DNA of 55,896 nucleotides from a virus (Duplodnaviria > Caudoviricetes), in the IMG/VR virus record IMGVR_UViG_3300032233_000817, positions 1 to 55,896 of that record, one strand, 5' to 3'. The notes under the pieces were generated by a model. That model worked only from the letters and a program-made list of their open reading frames with translations. It made no database searches and had not been told where the DNA came from. Position 1 is the first letter of the stretch; every line of letters begins with the position of its first letter. Below are positions 4,631-51,606 of the stretch, one piece after another. Both the position numbers and the translations under genes were made by a program.

Positions 4631-6172
4631 TTATATTGCGTATAATCTGTTTCGTGAACTTCTAAATCCTGGTATATCTTCAGCTTCATCACTAGGTAAT
4701 CTAATAAAGCCACCTTGTCTAAACCTCATTAATGCTAGTGTCGTGCTGTCCACCAAGTCATCATTCGCACCGCTAGGAAAATCATTACATTCTTCTATGA
4801 CTTCTTTTGCCCACCGTCTATCAGGTGCCCATACTATACCACTTCTAAATAAATCAGAAATTGCATTGACTCGACTGATCTTATCTTGTCCTTTACCTGG
4901 TGTAAATTCACCAATAGGTAGCCCCATTCTGCGCATTTCTTGATAAAGTGCGGCTCCATTAGACTTTTTTTCTACCATAAACGCATCGGGCTCCCATTCC
5001 TTGTACTCAGCTAGTACAAGTTCTTTGAGATCAGGGAATTCTAATCGTTTTTTAATTGAATTTAGCAATATTATATTATAGTTATTGACTTCTTCGTTAA
5101 AAAAGACGCCCCAAGTTGTTAAAGCGTTGTAATCTGCCCTATTATTTGTTTCTTGTGCCGCATCTAGGCTCATAATAGTGAATTCGCAATCGGGAGGGTC
5201 TTCTTTTTCCCATATTTTCCACCATTCTCTTTTAATTAAAGCGCCTTCTTCTGATACTGGGTTTTGTAAGTACTGCGCATTCCAATATCGTGTATCTAGT
5301 GCAGCTTTTTTAGCCAGTAATTCTTCTAAACTCCAAAATTCTGGCCATAATGGTTTTTCAGTCCCGTTTTTATCTTCAATAATAGCAGGAAACTCAATAA
5401 CTTCCCACTCATCTACGCCTTCTTGCTTTATCATTTGATTAACTATTTGGCCGGTTAAGTCTAGCTTAGACCAACGAGTCATAACTACAATGATCGCACC
5501 GCCTGGCATAAGACGTTGAATTGGACCAGACTGAAACCACTCCCAAGCAGGGAGAAAAACATCAGCTCTTCCAAGTTTAGCATCCTGTTCAGAGTGTGGG
5601 TCATCAATGATAAACAAATCAGCCCCACGACCAGCGAGGGCACCACCCACACCAATAGCAAAATATTCTCCATTAAAATTTGTTCCCCATCGTGAAGCAG
5701 ATTTACTGTCTGCTTGTAGTTCTACTGTCGGAAAAATATTCTTATACGCGTCTGAGCCCACCAAGTTACGGACACGACGACCAAAACTAACCGCCAGATC
5801 AGCTGTGTGAGACGCCATAATAACCTTTTTGTGAGGAAATTTACCGAGGAACCATGCAGGCGCAAGATATGAAATAAGCTCTGACTTACCATGTCTCGGT
5901 GCAATGTTAACAATAACTCGTTTCTTCTTTCCCGCAGCAATATCTTCAAATATCTTAGCCAACCTTGCATGATGCTCTCCTACCATATATCCTGGATAAA
6001 CGTGATGTATAAAATCTAAAAAAGTTTCTTTACCAGACTTCTCAACGACTTTGCTTGTATATACTTTAAGAAGTCTTTGAAGTTTAACTTTGTCTGCTGG
6101 CTCCGCTATTTGAAAGAGCGCCTCTAGTTCCTCAATTTCTTTTTTAGTTATTGTTAGTTTTGGTTCTAGCAT
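4631..6172 (-). CDS. terL: Terminase large subunit
   Basis: Walker A APRHGKS, Walker B FIIDDP, VMTRW coupling motif, RNase H-like C-domain (SLD...DDLVD). Confidence 0.95.
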   Translation of the reverse strand: MLEPKLTITKKEIEELEALFQIAEPADKVKLQRLLKVYTSKVVEKSGKETFLDFIHHVYPGYMVGEHHARLAKIFEDIAAGKKKRVIVNIAPRHGKSELISYLAPAWFLGKFPHKKVIMASHTADLAVSFGRRVRNLVGSDAYKNIFPTVELQADSKSASRWGTNFNGEYFAIGVGGALAGRGADLFIIDDPHSEQDAKLGRADVFLPAWEWFQSGPIQRLMPGGAIIVVMTRWSKLDLTGQIVNQMIKQEGVDEWEVIEFPAIIEDKNGTEKPLWPEFWSLEELLAKKAALDTRYWNAQYLQNPVSEEGALIKREWWKIWEKEDPPDCEFTIMSLDAAQETNNRADYNALTTWGVFFNEEVNNYNIILLNSIKKRLEFPDLKELVLAEYKEWEPDAFMVEKKSNGAALYQEMRRMGLPIGEFTPGKGQDKISRVNAISDLFRSGIVWAPDRRWAKEVIEECNDFPSGANDDLVDSTTLALMRFRQGGFIRLPSDEAEDIPGFRSSRNRLYAI

Positions 6173-6794
6173 TTTCTACAATTTCTGCATCTATAATTTG
6201 GCTTTTAGGTTTTAACACTGCCTTCGCTTTTAATTCTTTTAGCATGGATAGCAATTCGGTTTCAACTTCTTCCATCGTCTCCATTTTGTATGTAATTTCA
6301 GTTTTTCTTTTAAACGCATCAACGCCATCGATTTCACCAATAGCTCTTAGGGCTGCAATTTTATCTCTGTCGGTTTTAGCCCCGGCAACTAATTGGACAA
6401 AATTGTTTACCACAAAAAGTTTAAGGTCTGCAAGTTCTTCCACAATCATACAATTAGTTTGTCCTACAAGCCCAGCTAAAAAAGCCATTGTCTCATTAGG
6501 ATATTCACCAAATTCATGTTTTAATTTTTTATTCACCATCATTTCACGGGCAAGTTCTTTTGCTTGCTCCTGATGTTCTCGAGATGGCTGGATATCTTCG
6601 CCGTTTAAATCGGCAAGCGTTTTAATTGTGTTTATTCGGATATTAAGCTCTTTTTCTGGCGTCATATCGGGGTGACTTTGTTTAGAACTTGAAGGCATAG
6701 CCATATTTTTATCAATTGCGGGTAAAACAACAGCGGCATCAAATAGATCGCTTTTGTCTGCAGGAGATAAAGTAGGAATTTTTAGCTTACTCAT
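6144..6794 (-). CDS. Hypothetical protein, candidate terminase small subunit
   Basis: Helical protein overlapping the terL start; assigned by position only; start uncertain (6794 or 6848). Confidence 0.45.
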   Translation of the reverse strand: MSKLKIPTLSPADKSDLFDAAVVLPAIDKNMAMPSSSKQSHPDMTPEKELNIRINTIKTLADLNGEDIQPSREHQEQAKELAREMMVNKKLKHEFGEYPNETMAFLAGLVGQTNCMIVEELADLKLFVVNNFVQLVAGAKTDRDKIAALRAIGEIDGVDAFKRKTEITYKMETMEEVETELLSMLKELKAKAVLKPKSQIIDAEIVENARTKTNNN

Positions 6795-6879
6795 GTGTCG
6801 CTGATACACCTTTGAAATTAATTGCAGCTTTACTTGCGATTGTAACATAGTTTATATGAAAACAAGGTAGAATATATAA

Positions 6880-7224
6880 ATGAAAACTACATTAACTAAG
6901 AAGAACTTAGAGATACTCTACAACATGGCCTGCCAAATGCCGCCTTTTAATAGACTTCCTATGCCCAAATCTTCTAAAGTTAAGTTTAAAGTCATTAAAA
7001 ACCCCAATATATACGGTTGCTTTGATGAACATGAGATGGAAATTCAAATAAGTTCTAACGCTTGTGGGCATTTCACTACTATTTTTCAAACCCTCCTCCA
7101 TGAGATGGTCCATTTAGCTCTTTACGTTCGGGGCGATGAAGACTTCCATGAACATGGTCCTAAATTCCTTCGTATTAAAAACGTCTACTCCGAGCTTTAC
7201 AACTTCGATCCTAAAGCAATCTAG
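6880..7224 (+). CDS. SprT-like zinc metallopeptidase
   Basis: TLLHEMVH (HExxH) followed by HGPKF, the SprT signature. Confidence 0.85.
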   Translation: MKTTLTKKNLEILYNMACQMPPFNRLPMPKSSKVKFKVIKNPNIYGCFDEHEMEIQISSNACGHFTTIFQTLLHEMVHLALYVRGDEDFHEHGPKFLRIKNVYSELYNFDPKAI

Positions 7225-7348
7225 TTTTTTGTATAGTATATTACGCATTTTTTGCGATGCTACGGCGTAGCTATGATTAAATGCTATACAAATCTCGTTG
7301 TATGTAATATTCCTTTGTTTCTTCTATACAAACTTTATTCCCGCCGTA

Positions 7349-7450
7349 CAAAAGGTTAGACCCACCAGAGAGGATGGCAGGTCTAAATAATAATATGCGT
7401 TACCACGAGAGAGGAGGGTAACACGAGAGAAGCACCCAACACATACTATT
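7349..7450 (-). ncRNA. Candidate small regulatory RNA with two CU-rich (anti-Shine-Dalgarno) loops
   Basis: Hairpins at 7397-7424 and 7358-7384 pair fully only on the minus strand (G-U wobbles); upstream TTGCAA-18-TATAAT promoter; no ORF in the track. Confidence 0.55.
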
Positions 7451-7456
7451 GCCGCA

Positions 7457-7486
7457 ATTATACTCATCTTTCAGAAATTTTTGCAA
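7457..7486 (-). promoter_or_regulatory. Leftward sigma70-type promoter
   Basis: TTGCAA (7486-7481), 18-bp spacer, perfect TATAAT (7462-7457). Confidence 0.6.
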
Positions 7487-7629
7487 AATATTTTTTTATT
7501 TGCCCTTTATAAAACATAGGGGGGTGGGTTTCTATATTCCATTTTTTGTTCGGTGATTTATGCATATTCAAATGTATAGGCGAACGTCGGAGTCCCAAAG
7601 CATTTTGGGGTGGTGGGCGTACGGTGGGG

Positions 7630-7658
7630 TTGACATATATGTAAAGTTAGGGTATTCT
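7630..7658 (+). promoter_or_regulatory. Early promoter of cassette 1
   Basis: TTGACA-17-TATTCT; spacer ATATGTAAAGTTAG shared with the next three promoters. Confidence 0.85.
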
Positions 7659-7701
7659 GGTTTCATGCCTAGTAAGTTCTAGGTACACACGGAGAAACAG
7701 A

Positions 7702-7914
7702 ATGAAACTATCACACAGTCAAGTATTGTTACTAATCAATACAATCAATCCAACTGTAGAATACTATGGGGAACTCAAAGATGATGTAAGTATGGATCGA
7801 TACATCGAGTTACTAAAACTACAGGAACAACTTGAGAAGTTCTACATGCAAGAGATAGGTAAGGCTCAGATTAGGATTCAGGCTAAGAGTAAGATGCAAT
7901 GGAGAACAATATGA
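7702..7914 (+). CDS. Early hypothetical protein (cassette 1)
   Basis: 70-aa ORF with CACGGAGAA leader. Confidence 0.7.
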   Translation: MKLSHSQVLLLINTINPTVEYYGELKDDVSMDRYIELLKLQEQLEKFYMQEIGKAQIRIQAKSKMQWRTI

Positions 7915-8063
7915 GACAAACAATTAGATTCTTAGAAGGTCTAGTCATGTTAATGGTTGGTGGTATTGCATTGTTTTATCTACATCTGCCAACAGGTGCG
8001 GCGTTGTGTGTAGTAGCTGCGTGTATGTATTTTTATTTAGGACTGACCGAAGAAGTAGAGTAG
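7911..8063 (+). CDS. Small two-helix membrane protein (50 aa, cassette 1)
   Basis: MRQTIRFLEGLVMLMVGGIALFYLHLPTGAALCVVAACMYFYLGLTEEVE; GGAG RBS; ATGA overlap; below the ORF-track cutoff. Confidence 0.7.
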   Translation: MRQTIRFLEGLVMLMVGGIALFYLHLPTGAALCVVAACMYFYLGLTEEVE

Positions 8064-8077
8064 TACCGTGTGGGATT

Positions 8078-8106
8078 GGGAAGGCTTCGGTCTTCCCTTT
8101 CTTTTT
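8078..8106 (+). terminator. Intrinsic terminator, cassette 1
   Basis: GGGAAGGC-TTCG-GTCTTCCC plus T tract. Confidence 0.9.
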
Positions 8107-8110
8107 ATGG

Positions 8111-8129
8111 GAACGGGTATCAAAGGGCT
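8111..8129 (+). repeat. 19-bp cassette-boundary motif, copy 1
   Basis: GAACGGGTATCAAAGGGCT. Confidence 0.95.
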
Positions 8130-8150
8130 AATAGCCAGCCAAAAAATTAG

Positions 8151-8179
8151 TTGAGTAATATGTAAAGTTAGAGTAGTAT
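8151..8179 (+). promoter_or_regulatory. Early promoter of cassette 2
   Basis: TTGAGT-17-TAGTAT. Confidence 0.8.
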
Positions 8180-8215
8180 AGTTCTGTAGTACTTTTTAAT
8201 CACGGGAGAATTAGA

Positions 8216-8422
8216 ATGGATAATTTCACAGCAGTTGGAATCGCAGAAGGCTTTATTGAATGTGACGACCGAGAAGAAGTTTTAGCAGCGTGGCAACACC
8301 TAGTTGACACCGGTCTTGCGTGGAGTTTGCAAGGGTGGTTTGGTCGCATGGCCACAAACTTAATCGAACAAGGTTTAATTACACAGGGAGAAAATGATGG
8401 GTCAATATCACAAAGTGTATAA
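8216..8422 (+). CDS. Conserved small phage protein (cassette 2)
   Basis: 68 aa, AWQHLVDTGLAWSLQGWFGR motif; CACGGGAGAA leader. Confidence 0.75.
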   Translation: MDNFTAVGIAEGFIECDDREEVLAAWQHLVDTGLAWSLQGWFGRMATNLIEQGLITQGENDGSISQSV

Positions 8423-8729
8423 CGTAGATAAAAGAGAATACATCGAGCCTCATGAGATTAACAACGGCCTAAAGTTAGTTGAGCAAATAGGATATGAGCA
8501 TTCAACATCGACAGCCTTATTCTTATTACTTGCTAACTCTAATGGGCGTGGTGGTGGTGACGTTGAAGACCATGAATTCATAGGTCGTTGGGCGGGTGAC
8601 CGCATTGTAGTTCAAGGCGACTATGCAGAGGCGGGAGACCAAGGTTACATCTACAACCCAGAGCAATACATTAACATAAGTTCAGACATAGACCATATGC
8701 TTAAAGTTACTATGGGACAGACTGCATGA
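8394..8729 (+). CDS. Conserved phage hypothetical protein (cassette 2)
   Basis: MGQY..VN.DK.EY and GRWAGDRIVVQGDY motifs; GGAG RBS. Confidence 0.75.
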   Translation: MMGQYHKVYNVDKREYIEPHEINNGLKLVEQIGYEHSTSTALFLLLANSNGRGGGDVEDHEFIGRWAGDRIVVQGDYAEAGDQGYIYNPEQYINISSDIDHMLKVTMGQTA

Positions 8730-8733
8730 AATC

Positions 8734-8759
8734 GGGAGCTTCGGCTCCCTTTCTTTTTT
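8734..8759 (+). terminator. Intrinsic terminator, cassette 2
   Basis: GGGAGC-TTCG-GCTCCC plus T tract. Confidence 0.9.
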
Positions 8760-8763
8760 GTAA

Positions 8764-8782
8764 GAACAGGTATCAAAGGGCT
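8764..8782 (+). repeat. 19-bp cassette-boundary motif, copy 2
   Basis: GAACAGGTATCAAAGGGCT. Confidence 0.95.
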
Positions 8783-8804
8783 TTAGACGAGCCCAAAAAT
8801 AAAG

Positions 8805-8833
8805 TTGACTAATATGTAAAGTTAGAGTAGTCT
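8805..8833 (+). promoter_or_regulatory. Early promoter of cassette 3
   Basis: TTGACT-17-TAGTCT. Confidence 0.8.
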
Positions 8834-8871
8834 AGTAAATGCAGTATCTTTTAAACCACGGGAGAATCAAA

Positions 8872-9102
8872 ATGGAAAAGAAAACTTTAGCAGCACCCTT
8901 CGATGGCTTGTACATCGGATCAGAACCAGAAGTTATCAGCAACCCCTACTCAGGTGCAAGTGTGCTACTAGATCCTCTAGCAGTCGCGGTGTATGACACC
9001 ATCAAGGGCGCCGAGGTCATCGAGGATTATTCAAGGGTCCGCAAAGGACTGGAGTGGTTTCGAAAACATTATCCAGAAGAGTATATGGTTTTACTTGACT
9101 AA
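8872..9102 (+). CDS. Early hypothetical protein (cassette 3)
   Basis: Start set at MEKK after the CCACGGGAGAA leader; C-terminal WFRKHYPEEYMVLLD. Confidence 0.75.
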   Translation: MEKKTLAAPFDGLYIGSEPEVISNPYSGASVLLDPLAVAVYDTIKGAEVIEDYSRVRKGLEWFRKHYPEEYMVLLD

Positions 9103-9108
9103 GAGAAT

Positions 9109-9131
9109 CGGGGGGCAACCCCCGTTTTTTT
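9109..9131 (+). terminator. Intrinsic terminator, cassette 3
   Basis: CGGGGG-GCAA-CCCCCG plus T7. Confidence 0.9.
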
Positions 9132-9135
9132 ATGG

Positions 9136-9154
9136 GAACGGGTATCAAAGGGCT
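9136..9154 (+). repeat. 19-bp cassette-boundary motif, copy 3
   Basis: GAACGGGTATCAAAGGGCT. Confidence 0.95.
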
Positions 9155-9175
9155 AGAGGCGTGTCACTCTATCGC

Positions 9176-9204
9176 TTGAGTAATATGTAAAGTTAGAGTA
9201 GTAT
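9176..9204 (+). promoter_or_regulatory. Early promoter of cassette 4
   Basis: TTGAGT-17-TAGTAT, identical to the cassette 2 promoter. Confidence 0.8.
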
Positions 9205-9240
9205 AGTAATTGCAGTATTTTTAAACCACGGGAGAACAGT

Positions 9241-9498
9241 ATGAACATTCAAGGATTTACAACACCACACAGCATCGAGATGTATCGCATGACAGTAATT
9301 CGCACAGCTATCAAGATCTATTTGGGAACTGGGATAAAAGTTAACAGGATGTATACACCAGGTAATATGGTTCGAGCTGTCGCTCAAAAGACAGGCAAGA
9401 CTTACAAGAGAGGTAAGGTCGGTATGACTGAGGCATTCAATGATCTAGAACAATGGATTCTTGATAACAAAACTTTAGGCAACGAGGTTCCGCTATGA
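9241..9498 (+). CDS. Early hypothetical protein (cassette 4)
   Basis: 85-aa basic ORF, CCACGGGAGAA leader. Confidence 0.75.
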   Translation: MNIQGFTTPHSIEMYRMTVIRTAIKIYLGTGIKVNRMYTPGNMVRAVAQKTGKTYKRGKVGMTEAFNDLEQWILDNKTLGNEVPL

Positions 9499-9710
9499 AC
9501 AACTATTTAAACGAAAAGACTTATATTATCCAATGCCAAAGTGACAGCGATCTATTATGGTGCAATGAGTTTGGGTGGATTGATGATCTATCCCAGGCGG
9601 ATAAGTTTTCAGAGTTTGAAAAGGATACTTTAAATCTTCCGATAGAAGGTCAATGGGTAGAACCACATCAATATTTTAAAAGAGATAATCATGAACTACT
9701 TAGTGTTTAA
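9495..9710 (+). CDS. Early acidic hypothetical protein (cassette 4)
   Basis: 71 aa, ATGA overlap, GAGG RBS, LLWCNEFGW motif. Confidence 0.7.
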   Translation: MNNYLNEKTYIIQCQSDSDLLWCNEFGWIDDLSQADKFSEFEKDTLNLPIEGQWVEPHQYFKRDNHELLSV

Positions 9711-9755
9711 AGCAGTGCTACAAAGTATGCAGTATGAACTTAGTAAAAATAAAGA

Positions 9756-9778
9756 GGGGGCTTCGGCTCCCTTTTTTT
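9756..9778 (+). terminator. Intrinsic terminator, cassette 4
   Basis: GGGGGC-TTCG-GCTCCC plus T7. Confidence 0.9.
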
Positions 9779-9782
9779 CAAA

Positions 9783-9801
9783 GAACAGGTATCAAAGGGC
9801 T
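9783..9801 (+). repeat. 19-bp cassette-boundary motif, copy 4
   Basis: GAACAGGTATCAAAGGGCT. Confidence 0.95.
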
Positions 9802-9822
9802 ACAAGCAAGTCATTAAATAAC

Positions 9823-9850
9823 TTGACATATTATTTAAAACAAGTAAACT
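9823..9850 (+). promoter_or_regulatory. Early promoter of cassette 5
   Basis: TTGACA-16-TAAACT. Confidence 0.7.
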
Positions 9851-9876
9851 AATAAGACATTCACGAGGGGACGCAA

Positions 9877-10548
9877 ATGTATATACCAATTATAGAATTT
9901 AAAACTAAAAAAGAGACCGTTGAGGTTATCGGCGGGGAACTACGCAACAATAAAAAAATGCCTTGTAAAACTTTCAACCTTTCCGCCTGGCATTGCAAAA
10001 CTGGGGGACTATTAGCCAGTATTCCTGGGACGATCTGCAACGAGTGCTATGCTAGGCAAGGTCACTATGCTATTTACAGGGAAAACCATGCACCGGGCTA
10101 TGACACCAGGCTTAAAAATGTGGATTCCATTTACTGGGTAGACGCCATGATTAAGCAAATAGGCACGGATGAGTATTTCAGGTGGTTTGCTTCGGGCGAT
10201 CTGCAAAGTTTAGAGATGCTAGAAAAGATTGTACTTATAGCCCGGGCGTTACCTAACACTAAATTTTGGTTACCAACACACGAACCTAAGTTTATAAAGA
10301 TGTGGCTTACTAAACACCAACAAGAATTTCCTGAGAATCTGATCATACGAATAAGCGCCGTTTATATTGATAAACCTTCGACGCTTATAAAATCACTGCA
10401 AGGCTACAGAAACATTTTAACAAGTACAGTACACACCATAACACCCATAGGCAAAGATTGTAAGGCGCACGATCAAAATGGCGAATGTAGAAGTTGCCGG
10501 GACTGCTGGGACACGGATGTTAAAAATGTATCGTATCTTGCGCACTAG
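9877..10548 (+). CDS. GP88-family Cys-rich phage protein (cassette 5)
   Basis: C...CxxCYA, YFRW..SGD, FWLPT, C-terminal CxxCRxCW motifs. Confidence 0.75.
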   Translation: MYIPIIEFKTKKETVEVIGGELRNNKKMPCKTFNLSAWHCKTGGLLASIPGTICNECYARQGHYAIYRENHAPGYDTRLKNVDSIYWVDAMIKQIGTDEYFRWFASGDLQSLEMLEKIVLIARALPNTKFWLPTHEPKFIKMWLTKHQQEFPENLIIRISAVYIDKPSTLIKSLQGYRNILTSTVHTITPIGKDCKAHDQNGECRSCRDCWDTDVKNVSYLAH

Positions 10549-10565
10549 CTCACCCCCGTGGGACT

Positions 10566-10595
10566 GGGAGGACTTCGGTCTTCCCTTTCTTTTTT
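10566..10595 (+). terminator. Intrinsic terminator, cassette 5
   Basis: GGGAGGAC-TTCG-GTCTTCCC plus T tract. Confidence 0.9.
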
Positions 10596-10599
10596 GTGG

Positions 10600-10618
10600 G
10601 AACAGGTATCAAAGGGCT
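10600..10618 (+). repeat. 19-bp cassette-boundary motif, copy 5
   Basis: GAACAGGTATCAAAGGGCT. Confidence 0.95.
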
Positions 10619-10639
10619 TCAGGCGTGTCGCAACATTGA

Positions 10640-11135
10640 GTTTTCCGTAAGTCATTGATTATCCTCATGTTCCACCTCTGTTCCACTTTCTGTTCCAGTT
10701 TCTGTTCCATGTTTCGAAAGTTAACCCCTTGTTTTCATTGGCTTGTTCCAATGTTCCAGTGTTTTTTAAGTATGCACAAGGTTTTTGAGATTCTTGGAGG
10801 TCGAGAGGTCAAGTATTGCAGTGTAAAACTTTACTTACCCCATAAGTGTAAAGTCTCAAAGACTTTCATACCTAAAAAACACTGGAACATTGGAACTGCA
10901 CACTTTTTAACCACTACTACCACTATAATATAATATAATATAATATATATAATATAAGGACTTACGCATTTTCGACACACCGAAGTTATCCACAATTTCT
11001 GTGTAAGTTTACATATGGAACAGACCAAAAAACTGGAACAGAGGTGGAACACGCTAACCCCTTGATTTTAAACGCTTGTTCCACTTCCTGTTCCAACTTT
11101 CATACTTTTCCTCCACCATATGTAAACCTTACCTT
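10640..11135. repeat. Putative replication origin: TGTTCCA iterons, nested inverted repeats, AT-rich core, DnaA box
   Basis: 8 TGTTCCA and 4 TGGAACA copies; 30-bp IR 10745-10774/10867-10896; 18-bp IR 10668-10685/11034-11051; (TAATA)n at 10924-10957; TTATCCACA at 10986-10994. Confidence 0.7.
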
Positions 11136-11260
11136 ATCATATAAAACCTTATTGTAAACTTTGCTTTAGCATATTATCCACCCCAATCACCACCAATCAC
11201 CCCCCCACTTTACCGACTCAACACACCCAAACTACACAACTTAAATACATCAAATAATAC

Positions 11261-11288
11261 TTGACATATATTATAGAAAGCGTATCTT
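11261..11288 (+). promoter_or_regulatory. Promoter of the long early operon
   Basis: TTGACA-16-TATCTT; upstream ATCAAATAATAC shared with the helicase promoter. Confidence 0.75.
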
Positions 11289-11332
11289 AATACATGAGCA
11301 ACACAAACTTTAGTTATTAACACGGAGGCAGT

Positions 11333-11632
11333 ATGAAAACTTTAAAACAACAAATCATGGCATTCATGAACGCAACACTTAAGACAAAGGCACAGGCACA
11401 AATCTTTGTAAACGCATTATGGGAAGTTAAGGCAGAAGACCCAACGAAAGTAAATTGGTCTTTAAACGAAGTTTTAGGTGAAGTGCCTGTAGTTTTAGGC
11501 AAGTGGATTGACGCTTGTCACGAAGAGTGTGCTTACCGAAATCATATGGACTTGGCATACAGAACAAGCAAAAAAGACGATGCAGTCTTTGAAGTAGCAA
11601 ACATTCTTTCATCTTTAGGATATAGGGGATAA
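11333..11632 (+). CDS. Early hypothetical protein
   Basis: 99-aa ORF, GGAGG RBS. Confidence 0.75.
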   Translation: MKTLKQQIMAFMNATLKTKAQAQIFVNALWEVKAEDPTKVNWSLNEVLGEVPVVLGKWIDACHEECAYRNHMDLAYRTSKKDDAVFEVANILSSLGYRG

Positions 11633-11798
11633 ACATGAAATACGATTGGTATAAAGTTTTAGACATAAAGGGTCATCAAATAGGGTATGTCTGTTGTGCC
11701 TTTAACAAGGCAATAGAAAAAGCAAGGCATATCTATGGCAAACGAGCCAGTGATGTTGAATACATATCAGACGAAGATTTTCGGAAAGTGAGGGCAAT

Positions 11799-12020
11799 AT
11801 GACTATCAACATAGAAGACGAAGCGATACAAGCAAAGGCAGAGGTATTTGTAGAGAAGAACGGACTACAAGCAGATTTATCGGACATCAGTGAAGCTATG
11901 TATGAGGAAATACTAAAGATGTTTGAAGATAAGCTAATGGAGTTTGGCATAGAAAGAAAAGGGTATTTTGATAATTGGAAGTTAACTTGTGATGTATCTT
12001 TTAAAGAGGAGGTAGTATGA
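11799..12020 (+). CDS. Small acidic hypothetical protein
   Basis: 73 aa, GAGG RBS. Confidence 0.7.
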   Translation: MTINIEDEAIQAKAEVFVEKNGLQADLSDISEAMYEEILKMFEDKLMEFGIERKGYFDNWKLTCDVSFKEEVV

Positions 12021-12241
12021 AATTTCTTAATTTAAAAAAACCTAAAGACTTTAAACGATGGGAAATTGTTATCAATAATGGTGGTGCTAGAAATAATAAT
12101 TTGGGTAGATGTAATTATGAAGTCGAGGATCAATGTCAATGTCGTAAATATGAATCAGATAACGAAGACAACGAATGTAATTTTTTGCATATTGTGGGGT
12201 TTAAAAGTTTTTGTGAATTACAAATAAAGGAGGCAGTATGA
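12017..12241 (+). CDS. Small Cys-containing hypothetical protein
   Basis: 74 aa, GGAGG RBS, ATGA overlap. Confidence 0.6.
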   Translation: MKFLNLKKPKDFKRWEIVINNGGARNNNLGRCNYEVEDQCQCRKYESDNEDNECNFLHIVGFKSFCELQIKEAV

Positions 12242-12356
12242 AAACAAAACAGGACGCATTGGATTGGGCATTAACATATTTAAGGGAGGTTGTCGGAGTA
12301 GAGATTGAAGACAACAAAGAATACCAAAAAGCAACACAAATAAACGAGGAGGCAGT

Positions 12357-12566
12357 ATGAAAACATTTAAAGTAAGCATACCAAGACGAGTGTCATTTAC
12401 CGATTGCGAAGTATTCTTTGTTGAGGCAGAGACAGAGCAAGACGCAATAAGTATGGTCAACGAAAGTAATGACATAGGGGAATTTGAGAGTCAAGGCGAC
12501 TACGAGACAGAGTATGTCTATGACACCATAGCAGAAGAAGTTAAACAAATGGAGGTAATAGCATGA
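12357..12566 (+). CDS. Small acidic protein with VEAETEQDA motif
   Basis: 69 aa, GAGGAGG RBS; resembles 14050..14262. Confidence 0.7.
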   Translation: MKTFKVSIPRRVSFTDCEVFFVEAETEQDAISMVNESNDIGEFESQGDYETEYVYDTIAEEVKQMEVIA

Positions 12567-12733
12567 TAACAAGAGAAGATATGATTGATAAATTAGTAGA
12601 GCATGATGTGGATAATTTTGATATGCGTGACCTAGCTGATTTATTTAGATATGGCATGGTTGCATATGAAGATATGTCAGACGAGGAACTAAAAGAAGAA
12701 TATGAACGATGTTTTGAGGAGGAAACAACATGA
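12563..12733 (+). CDS. Very acidic 56-aa protein
   Basis: MITREDMIDKLVEHDVDNF...YEDMSDEELKEEYERCFEEETT; GGAGG RBS; ATGA overlaps on both sides; below the track cutoff. Confidence 0.7.
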   Translation: MITREDMIDKLVEHDVDNFDMRDLADLFRYGMVAYEDMSDEELKEEYERCFEEETT

Positions 12734-12927
12734 ACTTATTTAACGAAATAGAACGAGTCACAAAAGAGATTTACAAGTGGCAAGACACGAAGAACTTTGT
12801 TGTATGGGTTGGAGGTTGTGAAGAACATAGCCAATTAACCTATCCACAAGCCATAGCACTACGAGATGAATACCTAGAAGATGGGTATGACGATGTTTAC
12901 ATTGACAGAAACGAGGAGGACAAGTGA
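12730..12927 (+). CDS. Small acidic hypothetical protein
   Basis: 65 aa, VWVGG and GYDDVYI motifs, GAGGAGG RBS. Confidence 0.7.
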   Translation: MNLFNEIERVTKEIYKWQDTKNFVVWVGGCEEHSQLTYPQAIALRDEYLEDGYDDVYIDRNEEDK

Positions 12928-13139
12928 TGGGAATATGGGCGAGACTCCCTTTACGCGAAGTTTATTGGATATTTATGGTTAAAGAATCCAATGGGTTTTA
13001 TCGTATGAGTGCTAATTGGTGTAAGAAAGAAGCTGAAACATGGGGTATTTATGGTCAAGATAATTTTGACCGAGCCACAAATAATTTAATTGCATCAATT
13101 AAACAAGAAAACAAAGCACACGCAAAAACATATTATTAA
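12924..13139 (+). CDS. Hypothetical protein
   Basis: 71 aa, GTGA overlap, GGAGG RBS. Confidence 0.6.
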   Translation: MMGIWARLPLREVYWIFMVKESNGFYRMSANWCKKEAETWGIYGQDNFDRATNNLIASIKQENKAHAKTYY

Positions 13140-13157
13140 TAACAAAGGAAAAACAAA

Positions 13158-13376
13158 ATGGAAAACAAATTAGATTTTGATGAAGTATGTGACCTAGCTA
13201 GTAAAATTTATTGGGAAGTAGTAAATAAGCTTGATGCAGAAGACAAGTGTGTTATGGACGACCCCGATAACAAAGGAGGGACACGCAACACAGAGTTTGG
13301 ACAAGAACTATATTACTTGATTGAAGACACGATCAAAGAATCAATTAACTACAAGGAGGACGAAGATGATGAGTAG
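13158..13376 (+). CDS. Small acidic hypothetical protein
   Basis: 72 aa, AAGGA RBS. Confidence 0.7.
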   Translation: MENKLDFDEVCDLASKIYWEVVNKLDAEDKCVMDDPDNKGGTRNTEFGQELYYLIEDTIKESINYKEDEDDE

Positions 13377-13572
13377 ATTATATGGCGAGGAGTATGCAAA
13401 GGTAGTATGGAGGGCAGAAGATGTTCAAGCATTAAAAAAAGATTGGTCACTCCCAAGATGTGAAGAGTGGTTAGAAGGCAATGAAAGACATATATCCGAC
13501 AGACTTATAGAGTTAGGTTGGGAAGTCATGGATACTTTATTACAAATGGAGGCAGATGATGAAGAAGTATAA
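13369..13572 (+). CDS. Small acidic hypothetical protein
   Basis: Start moved to the ATG after AGGAGG (13366 or 13369); VVWRAEDV...GWEV motif. Confidence 0.7.
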   Translation: MSRLYGEEYAKVVWRAEDVQALKKDWSLPRCEEWLEGNERHISDRLIELGWEVMDTLLQMEADDEEV

Positions 13573-13704
13573 GTATTGGTCAACAGAAAAGTTATTAAAA
13601 TTAATGCAAGAAATTAATTGGAGGATAAACAACACAAGCTATGGAATCAGCGATATTTATTTTCGCAATGCGATAGAGGACATAGTGAACAGGAGGGTAA
13701 ACAG

Positions 13705-13869
13705 ATGAGCGACATAAAAAGAATAGTGTCGTGGAAGTTAGTAATGGATATTGAATGGGAAGATGGTAAAAAAGAAGAGATAGATTTTCCCGAACACCTA
13801 GCACAAAGTGTAGATGACTACTTAACAGAGATAGAAGAGGAACGAGCAGAGGAGGACAACGATGAGTAA
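13705..13869 (+). CDS. Small acidic protein, WEDG type
   Basis: Start MSDIK after AGGAGG; similar to 14884..15123. Confidence 0.7.
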   Translation: MSDIKRIVSWKLVMDIEWEDGKKEEIDFPEHLAQSVDDYLTEIEEERAEEDNDE

Positions 13870-14053
13870 ATGGTATGGCATAAGTGACGAGGGCGATATG
13901 TATTGCATAGGCAAATGCAAAGACTTGCAAGAGGCTCACAAGGTTGCCGATGAGATGGGGATAGACAACATTGTATCCTTGATTGATGGGGAACGAGCAG
14001 AGTCATGGGCAAAGTTTATTTTAAGAACCTTATATGAGGAGGACGAGGAATGA
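13862..14053 (+). CDS. Small acidic hypothetical protein
   Basis: 63 aa, GAGGAGG RBS. Confidence 0.7.
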   Translation: MSKWYGISDEGDMYCIGKCKDLQEAHKVADEMGIDNIVSLIDGERAESWAKFILRTLYEEDEE

Positions 14054-14262
14054 AAAAGTTTAGCGTGATTAAACATATAGAAGTTAAAGACTTTATTACG
14101 CAAGAATTTCTGATTGAAGCAGAATCAGAACAAGCCGTAGCTGATATGACAGACGAAGAGTTTTATGAGAGGTGTTCATTTGGCGAGATTATAAGTAGGG
14201 CTTATGGCGATGACCCCACAGGATATGAAGAGATAGAAAAAATAGAGGAGATACCACTATGA
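14050..14262 (+). CDS. Small acidic protein with IEAESEQ motif
   Basis: 70 aa, ATGA overlap. Confidence 0.7.
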   Translation: MKKFSVIKHIEVKDFITQEFLIEAESEQAVADMTDEEFYERCSFGEIISRAYGDDPTGYEEIEKIEEIPL

Positions 14263-14379
14263 ATAAAGCAGAAGAGTTAAGACAAAGATTAATTGAAGTA
14301 GATGTAGCTATCGAAGAACTTGAGGCACAGAAGAAACTATTGGAAGATGAGTATTACGCTTGTGAAGAGGAGGCAACAT

Positions 14380-14661
14380 ATGAGTAGAGAATTTTGTTAT
14401 TACTGCGGTGAACCACAAGGGGAAAAGATAGGTTGTTGTGGCGAGAATCACTTTGGTGAGATGTATGGGTTTAAGTGTAAAGACTTAACCAAAGAATATC
14501 CTTATGGTGTTGAATGGAGTTTTGATTCAGATGGCAGTGACATCATAGATGTTGCATGGTTTAAGACAGAAGATGAAAGAGACATATTCACAGAAGAAGA
14601 AGGATTCAACATGATACGAGAAGAAACTAAACTAGAGAGGAAAGAACATGACGGACTATAA
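14380..14661 (+). CDS. Small protein with N-terminal Zn-ribbon-like CxxC...CC..H
   Basis: Start MSREFCYYCGE after GAGGAGG. Confidence 0.65.
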   Translation: MSREFCYYCGEPQGEKIGCCGENHFGEMYGFKCKDLTKEYPYGVEWSFDSDGSDIIDVAWFKTEDERDIFTEEEGFNMIREETKLERKEHDGL

Positions 14662-14896
14662 AGAGTTGTATGAAAATGCGACAAACGAGATAGCTACATT
14701 GAAAGATGAAGCCAAAGCATTAGATAGAAAGCTAACAGACATGGTATTAGATTTAGGTTGGGACTGCCAACGAATGTCACAGAGTGGACTAGCTACTTAC
14801 AATGCGATCTGTCGCACACTAAACATCGAGGAATACAAAGAAGAATATGAGGAGATTGATAAACAAATGAAAGGAACATCAGAATGGATAATTTAG
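14648..14896 (+). CDS. Hypothetical coiled-coil protein
   Basis: 82 aa, LGWDCQRMSQSG motif. Confidence 0.7.
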   Translation: MTDYKELYENATNEIATLKDEAKALDRKLTDMVLDLGWDCQRMSQSGLATYNAICRTLNIEEYKEEYEEIDKQMKGTSEWII

Positions 14897-15123
14897 AAAG
14901 AGACATAGACCCACCCGAACCACAAGAACCTATACGCATTAAATCATGGTGGATAGGATATCGTTGGGAAGACGGCACAGAAGACACACTTAACCTAGAC
15001 GATAACTTTAGACAAGCTAGAAGCGACATCGAGGGTGTATTAGACGAGGTTGAATACGAAGTCAATCGTGATATACTAGAAAACCAAGCACAGAAATGGG
15101 GAGAACCTGATGGTGACTATTGA
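14884..15123 (+). CDS. Small acidic protein, WEDG type
   Basis: 79 aa. Confidence 0.7.
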   Translation: MDNLERDIDPPEPQEPIRIKSWWIGYRWEDGTEDTLNLDDNFRQARSDIEGVLDEVEYEVNRDILENQAQKWGEPDGDY

Positions 15124-15276
15124 AAAGAAACAAAAACAGATTATTGTGGAGCAAATTGTGGTGACAGGCTATGTTAAACACAACAATGGCAGAAAATCAC
15201 CATTTGCTTTTGATAAGAAAGCCTTTGAACCTAAAGATTTAGAGGGTATTTTTAACGGAGTGGGGAGGATATATCA

Positions 15277-15513
15277 ATGACACCCGAAGAAAAGAAACGG
15301 AAGTTTGAAGAAGATTTAATTGAAGTAGCAGTAGCCGAGTATTATCAATGGGTCGAAGTGCATCAAGCTACAAGGTCAGAATGGAATGCACGAATGTTTT
15401 ATGACGCGATGAGACTTGGTGTAGTAAGGGGTATTAACTTTGCAACAAATCAGTATATGCAATCATTAAAAAACTTTGAGGAGAAGAAGAATGAAAACAA
15501 AACCAATATTTAA
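15277..15513 (+). CDS. Hypothetical protein
   Basis: 78 aa, GGAGG RBS. Confidence 0.7.
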   Translation: MTPEEKKRKFEEDLIEVAVAEYYQWVEVHQATRSEWNARMFYDAMRLGVVRGINFATNQYMQSLKNFEEKKNENKTNI

Positions 15514-25883: not shown

Positions 25884-26216
25884 ATGCCGAAAAAATATAG
25901 TCAGTCATTTTTAATTGAACTGAATAGTTTTGATGAAGATAGACCTGGCGTGTTATTGGCAAAGGCTTGCGTAAATGCAGACCTTCCCATTATAGAAATT
26001 GCTAAGGTCTTTGGAGTATCCCGGATGACTGTTCACAGTTGGTTCCGGGGTTCCCCGATTCGAGATAAGAATGCAATTAAAATTAAAAAATTTTTAAAAG
26101 CACTTGAAGAAGAGTGGACATTTCAATTAGAGAACCACACTGAAGAGCTACCTATCTCAAGTATAAAACAAGCAAGGGCTTTTTTAGAGAGCAAAATTAT
26201 CCCTAAAATAAGTTGA
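25884..26216 (+). CDS. HTH DNA-binding protein
   Basis: IAKVFGVSRMTVHSWF helix-turn-helix. Confidence 0.75.
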   Translation: MPKKYSQSFLIELNSFDEDRPGVLLAKACVNADLPIIEIAKVFGVSRMTVHSWFRGSPIRDKNAIKIKKFLKALEEEWTFQLENHTEELPISSIKQARAFLESKIIPKIS

Positions 26217-29160: not shown

Positions 29161-29347
29161 TGACCCCGAATGGTTATTTCCGTTTGAGATGATGGAAATA
29201 GGAGATAGTTTTTTTATTCCCACTTTAAAAAGTGCGCCGTTAATTTATGCGATTGAAACAGGAGCTAAAAGAGCAAAGGTCAGAGTAAAAACTTATTCTG
29301 TTATTGAAGCAGATTATATGGGGGTACGCACTTGGCGGATAGGTTAA
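29147..29347 (+). CDS. Small conserved phage protein
   Basis: FPF..M.IGDSFFIP...GVR.WR motif; last plus-strand gene. Confidence 0.7.
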   Translation: MQLHNDPEWLFPFEMMEIGDSFFIPTLKSAPLIYAIETGAKRAKVRVKTYSVIEADYMGVRTWRIG

Positions 29348-50181: not shown

Positions 50182-51606
50182 TTAAATCTCCTTTATGTCG
50201 GCGTATGATGCGCCAGTTTCTAAAATATGACGGAGTAACCCGCCGTAAATGTTTAATTCAATTTCATCCCCTAGCATACGAATCAAATCAATAAATTCTT
50301 GTGCTTGAGAAATCATCCACGGGTTACAGTTAAATATTTTTCCGCCCACGTTTACGGGTATGCTTAACTGTCCATCATTTTCTATTTGTTCATATGCATG
50401 GTGAACTTCATCTTCTAAACAGGAATCGCATCCAAAGAGATGAAACTGTTTAAAACCTAACATCCTAAACAACGGTATTGCTCTTAAAAGGACTGTCGAT
50501 CCTCCTGGAACAGGATACCAAGTTCGGTATTGTTTAGCTAATATGTCATTAAGTAACTCAGTACTTGTGTGCCATATATAGGTTCTATCTTTTGGAAGCC
50601 CATCAAACGTAGTAGGATCACATTGAGAAGCAATAAAATACTTACAATGATCTACCACAGGTTGTGTAAATCGTGCATTAAATGGTCTTGCATCTACCAT
50701 AACCATAGCAGAAGGCGTAATACCATTGTCTAGGCACCATTTATAAGCCCCATTAATTGTGATCAGTTTAACACCATCAGCCCGTTTTTGTCTAATAGTT
50801 TCTAGGTGTTCATTCAATGACGGTCCACCGCCTACAATCATAACTTCTTGGTCATTCGTAGGGTGGGGTTCTATTTGTAAAAAACCTCGTTTAATATTGT
50901 GCTCTACGTTTGCTTTGATAATTTCATCGTCTGTATTAAGCACTCCAGCATCAACAATATCAGAACCTTTTAACCAATTACTTACATAAAATAAACAATA
51001 ACCTTTTTCTTCTTTAGACCAATGAATAACACAATCTCGGTCTATAAACTTTTTTAACCACCATTCATATGGATGTACACTTAAATGAAGCTTATGCCCC
51101 ACCAATTTACCCATAACATCATCTTCAGTAGCAATTTGAAAGAATACATGCTGACAAGCAGCCAAACAATTATCTAATACTTTATCTACATGATGAGGTC
51201 TTATATGCTCCATCACATCAGTACAAAACCCATAAGCTGCTTTAACAGGTAAGGGTTGAGATAAGTCCGCCTCTACAAATCGCATAGCATGCTTCTGTGT
51301 TTCTAGCATTGGTCGAATATCTTCGTCTAAACAATTATCTGCGAAGTCAACCATCGTGACATCTAAGCCACCAAAAAAAGCTAAATTAAGAGCACCTCGT
51401 CCAGTGCCACAACCCAAATCTAATACTGATGCGCCTTTAGGTGGTCTAGCTTGTTTTAAAAATTCGTGTGCGATGTGTTCACCAGGAGCTACAACTCTAT
51501 ACTCCGGTCTGTCCCACATCATTTTATATAAATCTTTTTCTAGGGGTCTTACATTATTAATATTTACTTGTGGTGCTTCTGAAAATACTGATGAATCTAA
51601 TGTCAT
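50182..51606 (-). CDS. Class I SAM methyltransferase fused to an MptE-like/Maf (DUF115) domain
   Basis: VLDLGCGTG, DVMEH; IVGGGPSL, ITING, GGSTV, LGF....LFGCD. Confidence 0.8.
   Translation of the reverse strand: MTLDSSVFSEAPQVNINNVRPLEKDLYKMMWDRPEYRVVAPGEHIAHEFLKQARPPKGASVLDLGCGTGRGALNLAFFGGLDVTMVDFADNCLDEDIRPMLETQKHAMRFVEADLSQPLPVKAAYGFCTDVMEHIRPHHVDKVLDNCLAACQHVFFQIATEDDVMGKLVGHKLHLSVHPYEWWLKKFIDRDCVIHWSKEEKGYCLFYVSNWLKGSDIVDAGVLNTDDEIIKANVEHNIKRGFLQIEPHPTNDQEVMIVGGGPSLNEHLETIRQKRADGVKLITINGAYKWCLDNGITPSAMVMVDARPFNARFTQPVVDHCKYFIASQCDPTTFDGLPKDRTYIWHTSTELLNDILAKQYRTWYPVPGGSTVLLRAIPLFRMLGFKQFHLFGCDSCLEDEVHHAYEQIENDGQLSIPVNVGGKIFNCNPWMISQAQEFIDLIRMLGDEIELNIYGGLLRHILETGASYADIKEI

What the first reader, a model, noticed from the sequence alone, without database searches (positions are those of the whole stretch)
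7630..10618. Array of five self-contained expression cassettes with a common boundary element
Seen: five consecutive units of sigma70 promoter, CACG(G/A)G-type leader, one or two unrelated small genes, a UUCG or GCAA tetraloop terminator, then GAACRGGTATCAAAGGGCT (8111, 8764, 9136, 9783, 10600). The first and last boundaries (8066-8129, 10556-10618) are near-identical over ~60 bp, and their stem differences keep the pairing. Known: repeated early promoter/stem-loop units occur in T4-like phages (PeSL elements) and the SPO1 host-takeover region. Inference: an integron-like hypervariable array in which host-takeover or anti-defence genes are swapped by recombination at the boundaries. No integrase was recognised in the window.
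Basis: partly seen in the sequence, partly recalled or inferred. Interest (0 to 1): 0.88.

Follow-up and report, generated by a model that had tools for sequence, protein, structure and literature searches.

The report
Shuffled early-gene cassettes in a phage
The early region of an uncultured freshwater phage is a row of five small gene units, each with its own promoter and terminator and ending in the same 19-base tag, and relatives show these units being gained, lost and swapped much as in the known regulatory cassettes (PeSLs) of T4-like phages.

Summary
The 19-mer GAACRGGTATCAAAGGGCT occurs exactly five times on the + strand at the stated places (0.01 expected). Each copy follows a hairpin and T-run; four precede a conserved sigma70-like promoter and the fifth precedes an origin-like iteron region.

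The window is a 56-kb virus record distantly related to HTVC023P-type pelagiphages. In 49 related contigs I found 83 distinct boundaries of this type. Cassette number, content and order all vary.

Whole cassettes come and go at the repeated regulatory modules. Where a crossover could be placed, it lay in the promoter core, in the leader, or just before the hairpin, not in the 19-mer. About as many changes are single-gene indels inside cassettes. The boundary-free early region downstream is even more variable.

No tyrosine or serine recombinase or HNH nuclease was found.

Best reading: a PeSL-like hyperplastic early region shuffled by general homologous recombination, not an integron-like site-specific system. 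The invariant, terminator-linked 19-mer is new and unexplained; I take it to be a protein-binding site, possibly a termination insulator.

The parts
7630..7658 (+). Promoter P1 (TTGACA-17-TATTCT), first early promoter; no 19-mer upstream
   Evidence: (D3)
7702..8063 (+). Cassette 1 genes: 7702-7914 (70 aa, family F29) and 7911-8063 (50 aa, hydrophobic, F8), with ATGA stop/start overlap
   Evidence: no family hits
8078..8129 (+). Boundary 1: UUCG hairpin 8078-8097, T-run, 19-mer 8111-8129
8151..8179 (+). Promoter P2 (TTGAGT-17-TAGTAT) with conserved spacer ATATGTAAAGTTAGAG
   Evidence: (D2, D3)
8216..8729 (+). Cassette 2 genes: 8216-8422 (DUF7417, 68 aa) and 8394-8729 (111 aa, F11)
8734..8782 (+). 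Boundary 2: UUCG hairpin 8734-8749, T-run, 19-mer 8764-8782
8805..8833 (+). Promoter P3 (TTGACT-17-TAGTCT)
8872..9102 (+). Cassette 3 gene (76 aa, family F1)
9109..9154 (+). Boundary 3: GCAA hairpin 9109-9124, T-run, 19-mer 9136-9154
9176..9204 (+). Promoter P4 (TTGAGT-17-TAGTAT)
9241..9710 (+). Cassette 4 genes: 9241-9498 (85 aa, F0, the most widespread array gene) and 9495-9710 (71 aa, found only in this window among the loci compared)
9751..9801 (+). Boundary 4: UUCG hairpin about 9751-9776 with T-run, 19-mer 9783-9801
9823..9850 (+). Promoter P5 (TTGACA-16-TAAACT)
9877..10548 (+). Cassette 5 gene: Pfam GP88 family, 223 aa, seven invariant cysteines; almost always the last cassette before the iterons in relatives
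10566..10618 (+). Boundary 5: UUCG hairpin 10566-10585, T-run, 19-mer 10600-10618
10640..11330 (.). Right flank of the array, origin-like non-coding region: TGTTCCA iterons in both orientations, AT-rich run 10917-10958, TTATCCACA (a DnaA-box consensus as I recall it) at 10987-10995, next early promoter at 11261
   Evidence: (D4, D5)

Best explanation
The array is the immediate-early, hyperplastic region of an uncultured tailed phage distantly related to HTVC023P-type pelagiphages. It lies between the divergently transcribed terminase operon and an origin-like iteron region.

Each unit is a self-contained, insulated expression cassette: a strong sigma70-type promoter, a conserved leader with Shine-Dalgarno sequence, one or two small genes, and an intrinsic terminator.

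The same regulatory modules recur every 370-820 bp: a 33-45-nt promoter core, the leader, and the T-run plus 19-mer. I infer that they serve as portable homology for the phage's own general recombination functions, which appear to include a PD-(D/E)XK nuclease, a T7-type SSB and an Hjc/VRR-NUC-like resolvase. This would delete, insert, translocate or allele-swap whole cassettes. Microhomology at gene starts would add or remove single genes inside cassettes. This is the PeSL mechanism described for T4-like phages.

Shown here: the anatomy, the variation among relatives, and the positions of the crossovers.

Inferred: that general homologous recombination is the agent, and what the 19-mer does.

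The 19-mer is an extra, nearly invariant, oriented element tied to the terminator. It begins 4-10 nt after the T-run, whereas its distance to the next promoter varies from 11 to 71 nt. It is absent from P1 and present before the promoterless iteron region. I take it to be a DNA site for a phage-encoded or host protein. My preferred guess, at about 0.3, is a roadblock or insulator that makes termination tight. Secondarily it supplies about 30 bp of universal homology between otherwise unlike boundaries.
For: Anatomy.

Relatives:
- 8 viral contigs carry the exact 19-mer.
- 55 metagenome stretches carry it. I judged 14 unrelated and one is a duplicate of L005.
- Together these give 83 unique boundaries. 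In all 83 a T-run of at least 4 T ends 4-10 nt before the motif. The motif is exact in 74 of 83.

Cassette maps differ in number, content and order.

Whole-cassette events:
- The F5 cassette is present in L005 and absent in L218; the crossover is just upstream of the hairpin.
- The F1 cassette is absent in L250; the crossover is in the leader/SD.
- Cassette 1 is absent in L250; the crossover is inside the promoter core.
- L233 and L242 carry an extra F43 cassette and L216 an extra u66 cassette. The duplicated unit is hairpin, 19-mer and 10-16 nt more; the crossover is unresolved.

Allelic swap: F1 is 98.3% identical between L257 and L235 but 89.2% between L257 and the window. The neighbouring F0 is 96.9% between L257 and the window but 89.5% between L257 and L235. 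The left crossover lies in 8763-8823. The right crossover lies in 9166-9223, which is the promoter/leader, downstream of the 19-mer.

Recombination genes.

No integrase, resolvase or HNH, with positive controls ringing in 14, 12 and 10 of 14 control genomes.

Motif-to-promoter distance is variable, and 16 boundaries are followed by iterons rather than a promoter.

PeSL description: PMC2839356 (abstract, sections 13 and 16) and PMC4122927 (abstract).
Against: - The near-invariance of the 19-mer across lineages whose TerL is only 76-80% identical, while hairpins and spacers differ, exceeds what a promoter/terminator composite needs. PeSLs as described have no such element.
- Two cassette insertions (D and E) have duplicated units centred on the hairpin plus 19-mer, so a crossover inside the 19-mer is not excluded there.
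- One deletion in L250 has an end inside the 19-mer.
- The 19-mer search required one exact copy per contig, so the conservation figure is biased upward.
- In TerL relatives found without reference to the motif, only L004 of 80 loci carries the full 19-mer.
- In more distant relatives, one of the two degenerate copies has no obvious T-run terminator before it. That weakens the terminator-coupling argument.
- No binding protein, transcript end or recombination intermediate was observed.
Confidence: 0.6

Rival explanations
1. Integron-like site-specific system: the 19-mer is the core site of an unrecognised recombinase that excises cassettes as circles and inserts them at any other 19-mer.
For: - The motif is oriented, non-palindromic and nearly invariant at every cassette junction.
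- The exact motif is shared by lineages with different cassette orders.
- Extra cassettes in L233, L242 and L216 are bracketed by duplicated hairpin-plus-19-mer units.
- In more distant relatives two degenerate copies flank a single gene (GP88) as roughly 30-nt direct repeats that co-vary within a genome.
Against: - No tyrosine or serine recombinase or HNH family hit in the 56-kb record, which is 88% complete, so one could lie in the missing part.
- All crossovers that could be resolved lie outside the 19-mer: in the promoter, the leader, or before the hairpin.
- P1 takes part in a cassette deletion without any 19-mer (event C).
- Many indels are within cassettes.
- The GP88 model shows no recombinase or nuclease fold; the only matches are weak TIM/radical-SAM-like ones with E above 0.05.
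Confidence: 0.1
2. The 19-mer is purely a transcription-regulatory operator for the downstream promoter, that is, an activator or shut-off repressor site controlling early timing. Its multiplicity would simply follow duplication of promoter units, and it would play no part in recombination.
For: - Four of the five copies in the window lie 21-22 nt upstream of a -35 hexamer.
- The motif is confined to the early region.
- An HTH protein is encoded at 25884-26216.
Against: - P1 has no 19-mer.
- The last copy of each array precedes iterons, not a promoter; 16 such boundaries were seen.
- The distance to the -35 ranges over 11-71 nt without strict helical phasing in relatives, while the distance to the T-run is fixed at 4-10 nt.
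Confidence: 0.2
3. The 19-mer is a DNA-metabolism site unrelated to transcription. It could be a strand-specific nick site, like the consensus-linked nicks of T5- or phiKMV-type phages (recalled, not checked here). It could instead be a polar replication-fork barrier or origin accessory site next to the iteron/DnaA-box region.
For: - All copies are on one strand and few in number.
- The array abuts an origin-like region.
- In distant relatives the motif borders that region.
- Nicks would also stimulate local recombination.
Against: - No nickase or HNH was found.
- The tight coupling to terminator T-runs is not explained.
- No read-end data could be obtained, because all runs are held as contigs.
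Confidence: 0.1

Closest known systems
PeSL (promoter-early stem-loop) regulatory cassettes of T4-like myoviruses (Arbiol et al. 2010, PMC2839356; Comeau et al. 2014, PMC4122927)
   Same: - A composite intergenic motif of a terminator stem-loop plus a strong sigma70-like early promoter and Shine-Dalgarno sequence.
- Repeated many times in a hyperplastic region of small ORFans.
- Indels and replacements between close relatives map to the motifs.
- Recombination between neighbouring motifs deletes or inserts whole self-expressing units.
   Different: - A different virus lineage: a 56-kb genome with TerL nearest to HTVC023P-type pelagiphages, not T4-like.
- Here the stem-loop is a classical hairpin plus T-run placed well upstream of the promoter.
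- An additional invariant 19-mer sits between terminator and promoter. It is not part of the PeSL description in the sections I read.
- Mini-circles were shown for PeSLs by PCR and could not be tested here.
Mobile/chromosomal integrons (recalled general knowledge)
   Same: A tandem array of small gene cassettes separated by a recurring site; cassette content varies between relatives.
   Different: - No IntI-type integrase.
- Cassettes carry their own promoters and terminators instead of relying on a common Pc promoter.
- The 19-mer is not an imperfect palindrome like attC.
- Resolved crossovers are not at the recurring site.
Module 'linker'/boundary sequences of lambdoid phages (modular-evolution idea of Botstein; recalled, no paper read here)
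   Same: Short conserved sequences at gene-module junctions proposed to guide homologous exchange between otherwise diverged phages.
   Different: Here the conserved sequences are regulatory modules plus a 19-mer, repeated in tandem within one genome. That allows intragenomic deletion, duplication and translocation as well as exchange between genomes.

Membership tests
PeSL-type regulatory cassettes | Composite intergenic motif combining a sigma70-like early promoter with a terminator stem-loop, ending in a Shine-Dalgarno sequence and start codon | tested here: met
   Sequence only. Promoter and terminator activity were not measured.
PeSL-type regulatory cassettes | Many copies concentrated in a hyperplastic region next to ORFans | tested here: met
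   Five units in 3 kb. The cassette proteins have no functional annotation. 83 unique boundaries were found in relatives.
PeSL-type regulatory cassettes | Indels and replacements between close relatives coincide with the motifs | tested here: met
   At least five whole-cassette events and one allelic swap have breakpoints in the promoter, leader or terminator repeats. At least six within-cassette events also occur.
PeSL-type regulatory cassettes | Circular excision products (mini-circles) | not testable with these tools
   All runs are held only as assembled contigs.
PeSL-type regulatory cassettes | Occurrence in T4-like myoviruses | tested here: not met
   TerL is nearest to Pelagibacter phages HTVC027P/HTVC023P at about 50% amino-acid identity. 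There is an SU10-adaptor Pfam hit. The record is 56 kb.
Integron | IntI tyrosine recombinase adjacent to the array | tested here: not met
   PF00589: 0 matches in the six-frame search of the record; the control rang in 14 of 14 genomes. The record is 88% complete.
Integron | attC-type imperfect inverted repeat at each cassette end; promoterless cassettes | tested here: not met
   The 19-mer has no dyad symmetry (read) and is unpaired in folds. Every cassette has its own promoter.
Intrinsic (Rho-independent) terminators | G+C-rich hairpin followed by a T-run | tested here: met
   The 45 nt upstream of the motif fold with a median of -17.1 kcal/mol over 83 boundaries.
Rfam RNA families | Match to any curated covariance model | tested here: not met
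   Only three sub-threshold hits, with E between 0.36 and 0.91, in 7200-11400.

The most novel reading that the evidence does not exclude
The 19-mer is a dedicated recombination adaptor: an attC-like but non-palindromic site used by a recombinase of no recognised family, encoded in the missing 12% of the genome or among the unannotated early genes. Under this reading these abundant aquatic phages carry a true gene-cassette capture system in which each cassette brings its own promoter and terminator.
Probability: 0.1. Interest if true: 0.85.

Novelty: new variant of a known kind. Interest (0 to 1): 0.5.

Why it matters
The result extends PeSL-style modular shuffling beyond T4-like myoviruses. 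That mechanism lets phages try out small early genes without breaking expression. Here it appears in a very abundant group of uncultured aquatic phages: 597 viral stretches encode a TerL relative.

It also gives a compact catalogue for function hunting. About 26 small early-gene families move as ready-made expression units.

The terminator-coupled, invariant 19-mer is a concrete and testable unknown. If it is a roadblock or insulator, it would be a simple part for building tightly insulated expression units. If it is a recombination site, it would define a new cassette system.

Tried and rejected
- RNA element: Rfam gave no hit above threshold. In folds of all five boundaries the 19-mer is unpaired or pairs inconsistently. 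Reading frames across the 19-mer differ between copies, so it is not coding.

- Promoter for a phage RNA polymerase: the T7-type RNAP family gave no match, but the control rang in no genome, so this is inconclusive. The 2089-aa virion protein hits lysozyme-like and DarB-like PHROGs, not an RNAP.

- Phage sigma factor: only a sub-threshold 16-bit r4-like HTH at 25977-26039.

- Host repeat or host-factor site: the exact 19-mer occurs as four singletons in the collection of one genome for each of 185,579 species, which I take to be chance. It is absent from 50,697 cultured-phage records, where only the hairpin part of the boundary matched.

- IHF consensus (recalled WATCAANNNNTTR): the TATCAA part fits but the TTR part does not. 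Rejected as unsupported.

- Relation to the TGTTCC iterons: the motif starts with GGAACA in some copies, but only 1 of 5 window copies fits fully, and the motif and iterons do not co-vary in L124 and L243. Rejected.

- Class-I activator spacing: distances to the -35 are 11-71 nt without clean phasing.

- 14-mer scan of viral contigs: dominated by single chance hits, so I did not use it.

- HTVC027P (L258): it has 7-bp CAAGC-type iterons around its GP88 homologue but no 19-mer.

- GP88 fold: confident model (pLDDT 89.7), but no PDB match with E at or below 0.001.

- Sequencing runs: all 20 are held as contigs. I laid four of them.
  - RNA-library contigs bridge boundaries at 8888-9407 and 10369-10733, but DNA carry-over cannot be excluded, so I claim no read-through.
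  - The stretch 9506-9739 had essentially no cover in X2, X5, X7 and X15 (only 1.38 in X5 over 9623-9739).
  - Loose ends at 7704, 8036, 9103, 9498, 9767 and 9849 suggest alternative gene content in other samples. I use only the assembled loci as evidence for that.
  - Two 'joints' from 7617 had 24-nt sides and are not trusted.
  - No excised-circle or cassette-skipping test was possible.

- The p234 protein (6144-6848, in the TerS position) tracks the motif type better than TerL does. Physical linkage explains this as well as a functional tie would, so I draw no conclusion.

- Paper supplements are closed, so PeSL supplementary figure S1 (promoter/terminator assays) was not seen. PMC9599517 has none of the words promoter, terminator, hypervariable, hyperplastic, cassette or 'direct repeat'. 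I found no description of this motif with the searches.

Full report
**What is in the sequence**

The window is a single linear virus record of 55,896 bases, estimated 88% complete. The pattern GAACRGGTATCAAAGGGCT occurs exactly five times, all on the + strand, at 8111, 8764, 9136, 9783 and 10600. Chance expectation is 0.01. The only other approximate match has three mismatches, at 16890, in a short gap between two genes and without a hairpin before it.

Each copy follows a G+C-rich tetraloop hairpin and a T-run. Four copies are followed, 21-22 nt later, by a -35 hexamer. P2-P4 share a conserved 33-nt promoter block with P1 (D3) and use the leader CACGGGAGAA before the start codon. P5, at 9823, is a variant.

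The units hold 2, 2, 1, 2 and 1 small genes. Only two have any family assignment, DUF7417 and Pfam GP88.

Two details need adjusting:
- Promoters P2-P4 are recognisable by their similarity to P1, not by the generic hexamer scan.
- The fifth 19-mer does not open a cassette. It borders a 700-bp non-coding region with TGTTCCA iterons in both orientations, an AT-rich run and a TTATCCACA box. That looks like a replication origin (the DnaA-box consensus is recalled).

**Genomic setting**

The portal, large terminase and a 234-aa protein in the small-terminase position run leftwards from about 6850. The array opens the rightward early and replication arm, which encodes an Hjc/VRR-NUC-like nuclease, DNA polymerase A, a PD-(D/E)XK nuclease, an SNF2 helicase, a T7-type SSB, an HTH protein and a DUF927 primase.

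The nearest cultured phages by TerL are Pelagibacter phages HTVC027P and HTVC023P, at about 50% amino-acid identity. There is no near DNA match among 50,697 phage records. The group is abundant: 597 of 599 candidate viral stretches encode a TerL relative.

**Relatives with the motif**

The exact 19-mer is present in 8 viral contigs and 55 metagenome stretches. Of the 55, I set aside 14 as unrelated: a gut-bacterial coding-sequence family and scattered coding hits. One more is a duplicate of L005.

Across the window and the remaining contigs there are 83 distinct boundaries. All have a T-run ending 4-10 nt before the motif. The 45 nt upstream fold with a median of -17.1 kcal/mol. The motif is exact in 74 of 83. 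The hairpins, loops and downstream spacers differ freely.

This conservation figure is inflated by how the contigs were found. Among 80 TerL relatives chosen without regard to the motif, only L004 has the full 19-mer. Seven others carry a degenerate 14-nt core. In six of them it occurs twice, as direct repeats of about 30 nt flanking the GP88 gene next to the iterons.

Among 33 TerL relatives with at least 4 kb of early region, 10 have a GP88 homologue, and 7 of those 10 have the core motif. Three have GP88 inside a tight operon with no motif.

Motif type tracks the neighbouring 234-aa protein rather than TerL, which shows mosaicism between the modules.

**Is the array variable, and where does it break?**

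Cassette maps show many arrangements. The bar stands for the boundary.
- Window: F29 F8 | DUF7417 F11 | F1 | F0 u71 | GP88 |
- L004: F26 F31 F8 | DUF7417 F11 | F1 | F32 F0 | GP88 |
- L250: DUF7417 F11 | F0 ...
- L233: ... F11 | F1 | F0 | F43 |
- L213: F30 F15 | F1 | GP88 | F40 |
- L005: F0 | F3 F1 | F5 | GP88-like |
- L218: ... | F3 F1 | GP88-like |
- L212: F0 F5 | F3 F1 | GP88-like |
- L002: F0 F3 F1 |

The relative order of F0 and F1 is reversed between sub-lineages. Relatives therefore do not keep a fixed order.

Breakpoints of whole-cassette events, from pairwise alignments and three-way comparisons:
- A: the F5 cassette is missing in L218. The junction keeps the F5-type hairpin, so the crossover lies between the F1 stop codon and the hairpin.
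- B: the F1 cassette is missing in L250. L250 follows the left copy through the 19-mer, spacer and promoter, then switches in the leader.
- C: cassette 1 is missing in L250. The switch is inside the promoter core, and no 19-mer is involved.
- D and E: L233 and L242 have an extra F43 cassette and L216 an extra u66 cassette. The duplicated unit is hairpin, T-run, 19-mer and 10-16 nt more. The crossover cannot be placed.

In addition, the F1 cassette of L257 is a different allele from its neighbours. F1 is 98.3% identical between L257 and L235 but 89.2% between L257 and the window. The flanking F0 is 96.9% identical between L257 and the window. Informative sites put the left switch in 8763-8823 and the right switch in 9166-9223. 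The right switch is therefore downstream of the 19-mer, in the promoter/leader.

L250 also has a deletion running from inside the fourth 19-mer into the GP88 coding region.

Changes inside cassettes are about as frequent:
- F29 replaced by F26 and F31.
- Insertions of F42, F41 and F32.
- u71 present only in the window.
- F31 absent in L217.

These changes sit at start-codon or Shine-Dalgarno junctions.

From the coordinates, 87% of the array (7630-10618) aligns to L004. Only about 46% of the next 4.7 kb of early genes, which have no 19-mer at all, aligns. The boundaries are therefore not required for gene turnover in this phage.

**Mechanism**

These facts fit recombination between repeated regulatory sequences, as proposed for PeSLs in T4-like phages. 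There, composite promoter/stem-loop motifs of about 100 bp flank ORFans, and recombination between them deletes, inserts and circularises cassettes (PMC2839356, abstract and sections 13 and 16; PMC4122927, abstract).

The phage has plausible general recombination functions. No tyrosine or serine recombinase or HNH nuclease is detectable, with controls positive in 14, 12 and 10 of 14 genomes. A gene in the missing 12% cannot be excluded.

I therefore prefer 'PeSL-like' to 'integron-like'.

**The 19-mer itself**

It is not explained by promoter or terminator function.
- It is tied to the terminator: 4-10 nt after the T-run in all 83 boundaries.
- It is not tied to the promoter: absent at P1, 11-71 nt from the next -35, and followed by iterons instead of a promoter at the end of arrays.
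- It has no dyad symmetry, no consistent RNA pairing and no Rfam match.
- It is not a host-genome repeat.
- It is not found in cultured phages.

I infer an asymmetric protein-binding DNA site. Given its position, a bound protein would meet RNA polymerase as it reaches the U-tract. My preferred guess is a roadblock that tightens termination and insulates the cassettes from one another and from the origin. This is inference only.

Whatever its primary role, the T-run plus 19-mer is the only stretch shared by otherwise unlike boundaries. It can therefore serve as universal homology for exchanges between different cassettes and lineages.

The rivals remain open at low probability: a site-specific recombination core, a promoter-control operator, and a nick or fork-barrier site.

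**Gene content**

The 'host-takeover or anti-defence' label rests only on early position. None of the eight proteins has a functional annotation.

GP88 is the one cassette that is nearly always last. It is a widespread phage family: 166 of 303 candidate proteins matched at E of 1e-5 or better. It has seven invariant cysteines. The model is confident (pLDDT 89.7) but has no solid PDB match.

**Verdict**

This is a real, well-organised feature.

It is best filed as a new variant of the PeSL kind of mobile regulatory cassette, in an abundant group of uncultured aquatic phages. Its distinguishing addition is an unexplained, invariant, terminator-coupled 19-mer. Interest is moderate.

Noticed in passing
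window 10640-11330: Origin-like non-coding region. It has six or more TGTTCCA iterons, direct at 10668-10770 and 11076-11095 and inverted at 10883-10895 and 11017-11050. It also has an (ATA)n-type AT-rich run at 10917-10958, TTATCCACA at 10987-10995 and TTATCCACC near 11166. The iteron region is conserved in relatives L005, L007 and L004.
   Followed up: partly
window 7630-7650, 9820-9831, 11258-11269: The early promoters carry ATATGT[AC]AAGTT in the spacer. In P1 this forms a near-palindrome with the -35 hexamer (TTGACATA/TATGTAAA). At P5 and at 11261 the same word lies inverted over the -35. Relatives repeat TTATATGTCAAGTT (L139, L145, L147) or the perfect palindrome TTCGACATATGTCGAA (L170, six copies). 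This looks like an operator overlapping the early promoters.
   Followed up: partly
window 10619-15280 versus L004: The early genes downstream of the array have no individual promoters, terminators or 19-mers. Only about 46% of this stretch aligns to a relative that is about 95% identical elsewhere. It is more plastic than the array.
   Followed up: partly
window 4631-6848 versus relatives: Mosaicism: contigs with TerL 86-91% identical to the window have the adjacent 234-aa protein only 44-55% identical and a variant motif. Contigs with TerL 76-80% identical have that protein 58-77% identical and the exact 19-mer.
   Followed up: partly
window 9877-10548: The GP88 family protein has invariant cysteines C40, C54, C57, C195, C204, C207 and C210. 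The model is confident but has no solid PDB match; the weak partial matches include TIM-barrel and radical-SAM enzymes. In several Roseobacter phage records its homologue lies at the very end or start of the record.
   Followed up: partly
L250 about 1400-1450 (metagenome contig): A relative in which the sequence from inside the fourth 19-mer to about codon 17 of GP88 is deleted. This leaves GP88 without a promoter or start codon.
   Followed up: partly
window 29344-35613 (- strand): A 2089-aa protein with an N-terminal endolysin-like PHROG hit and a C-terminal DarB-like antirestriction PHROG hit. It is probably a large ejected virion protein.
   Followed up: no
window 50182-51606 (- strand): A 474-aa protein among the late genes that fuses a class-I methyltransferase domain with an MptE-like domain.
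   Followed up: no
window 7225-7630: A 400-bp divergent control region between the SprT-like gene/terminase operon and P1. It has a 12-bp-stem hairpin on the - strand (7386-7356), a - strand promoter-like site at 7486-7457, and the word CACGAGAGA twice (7404, 7422).
   Followed up: no
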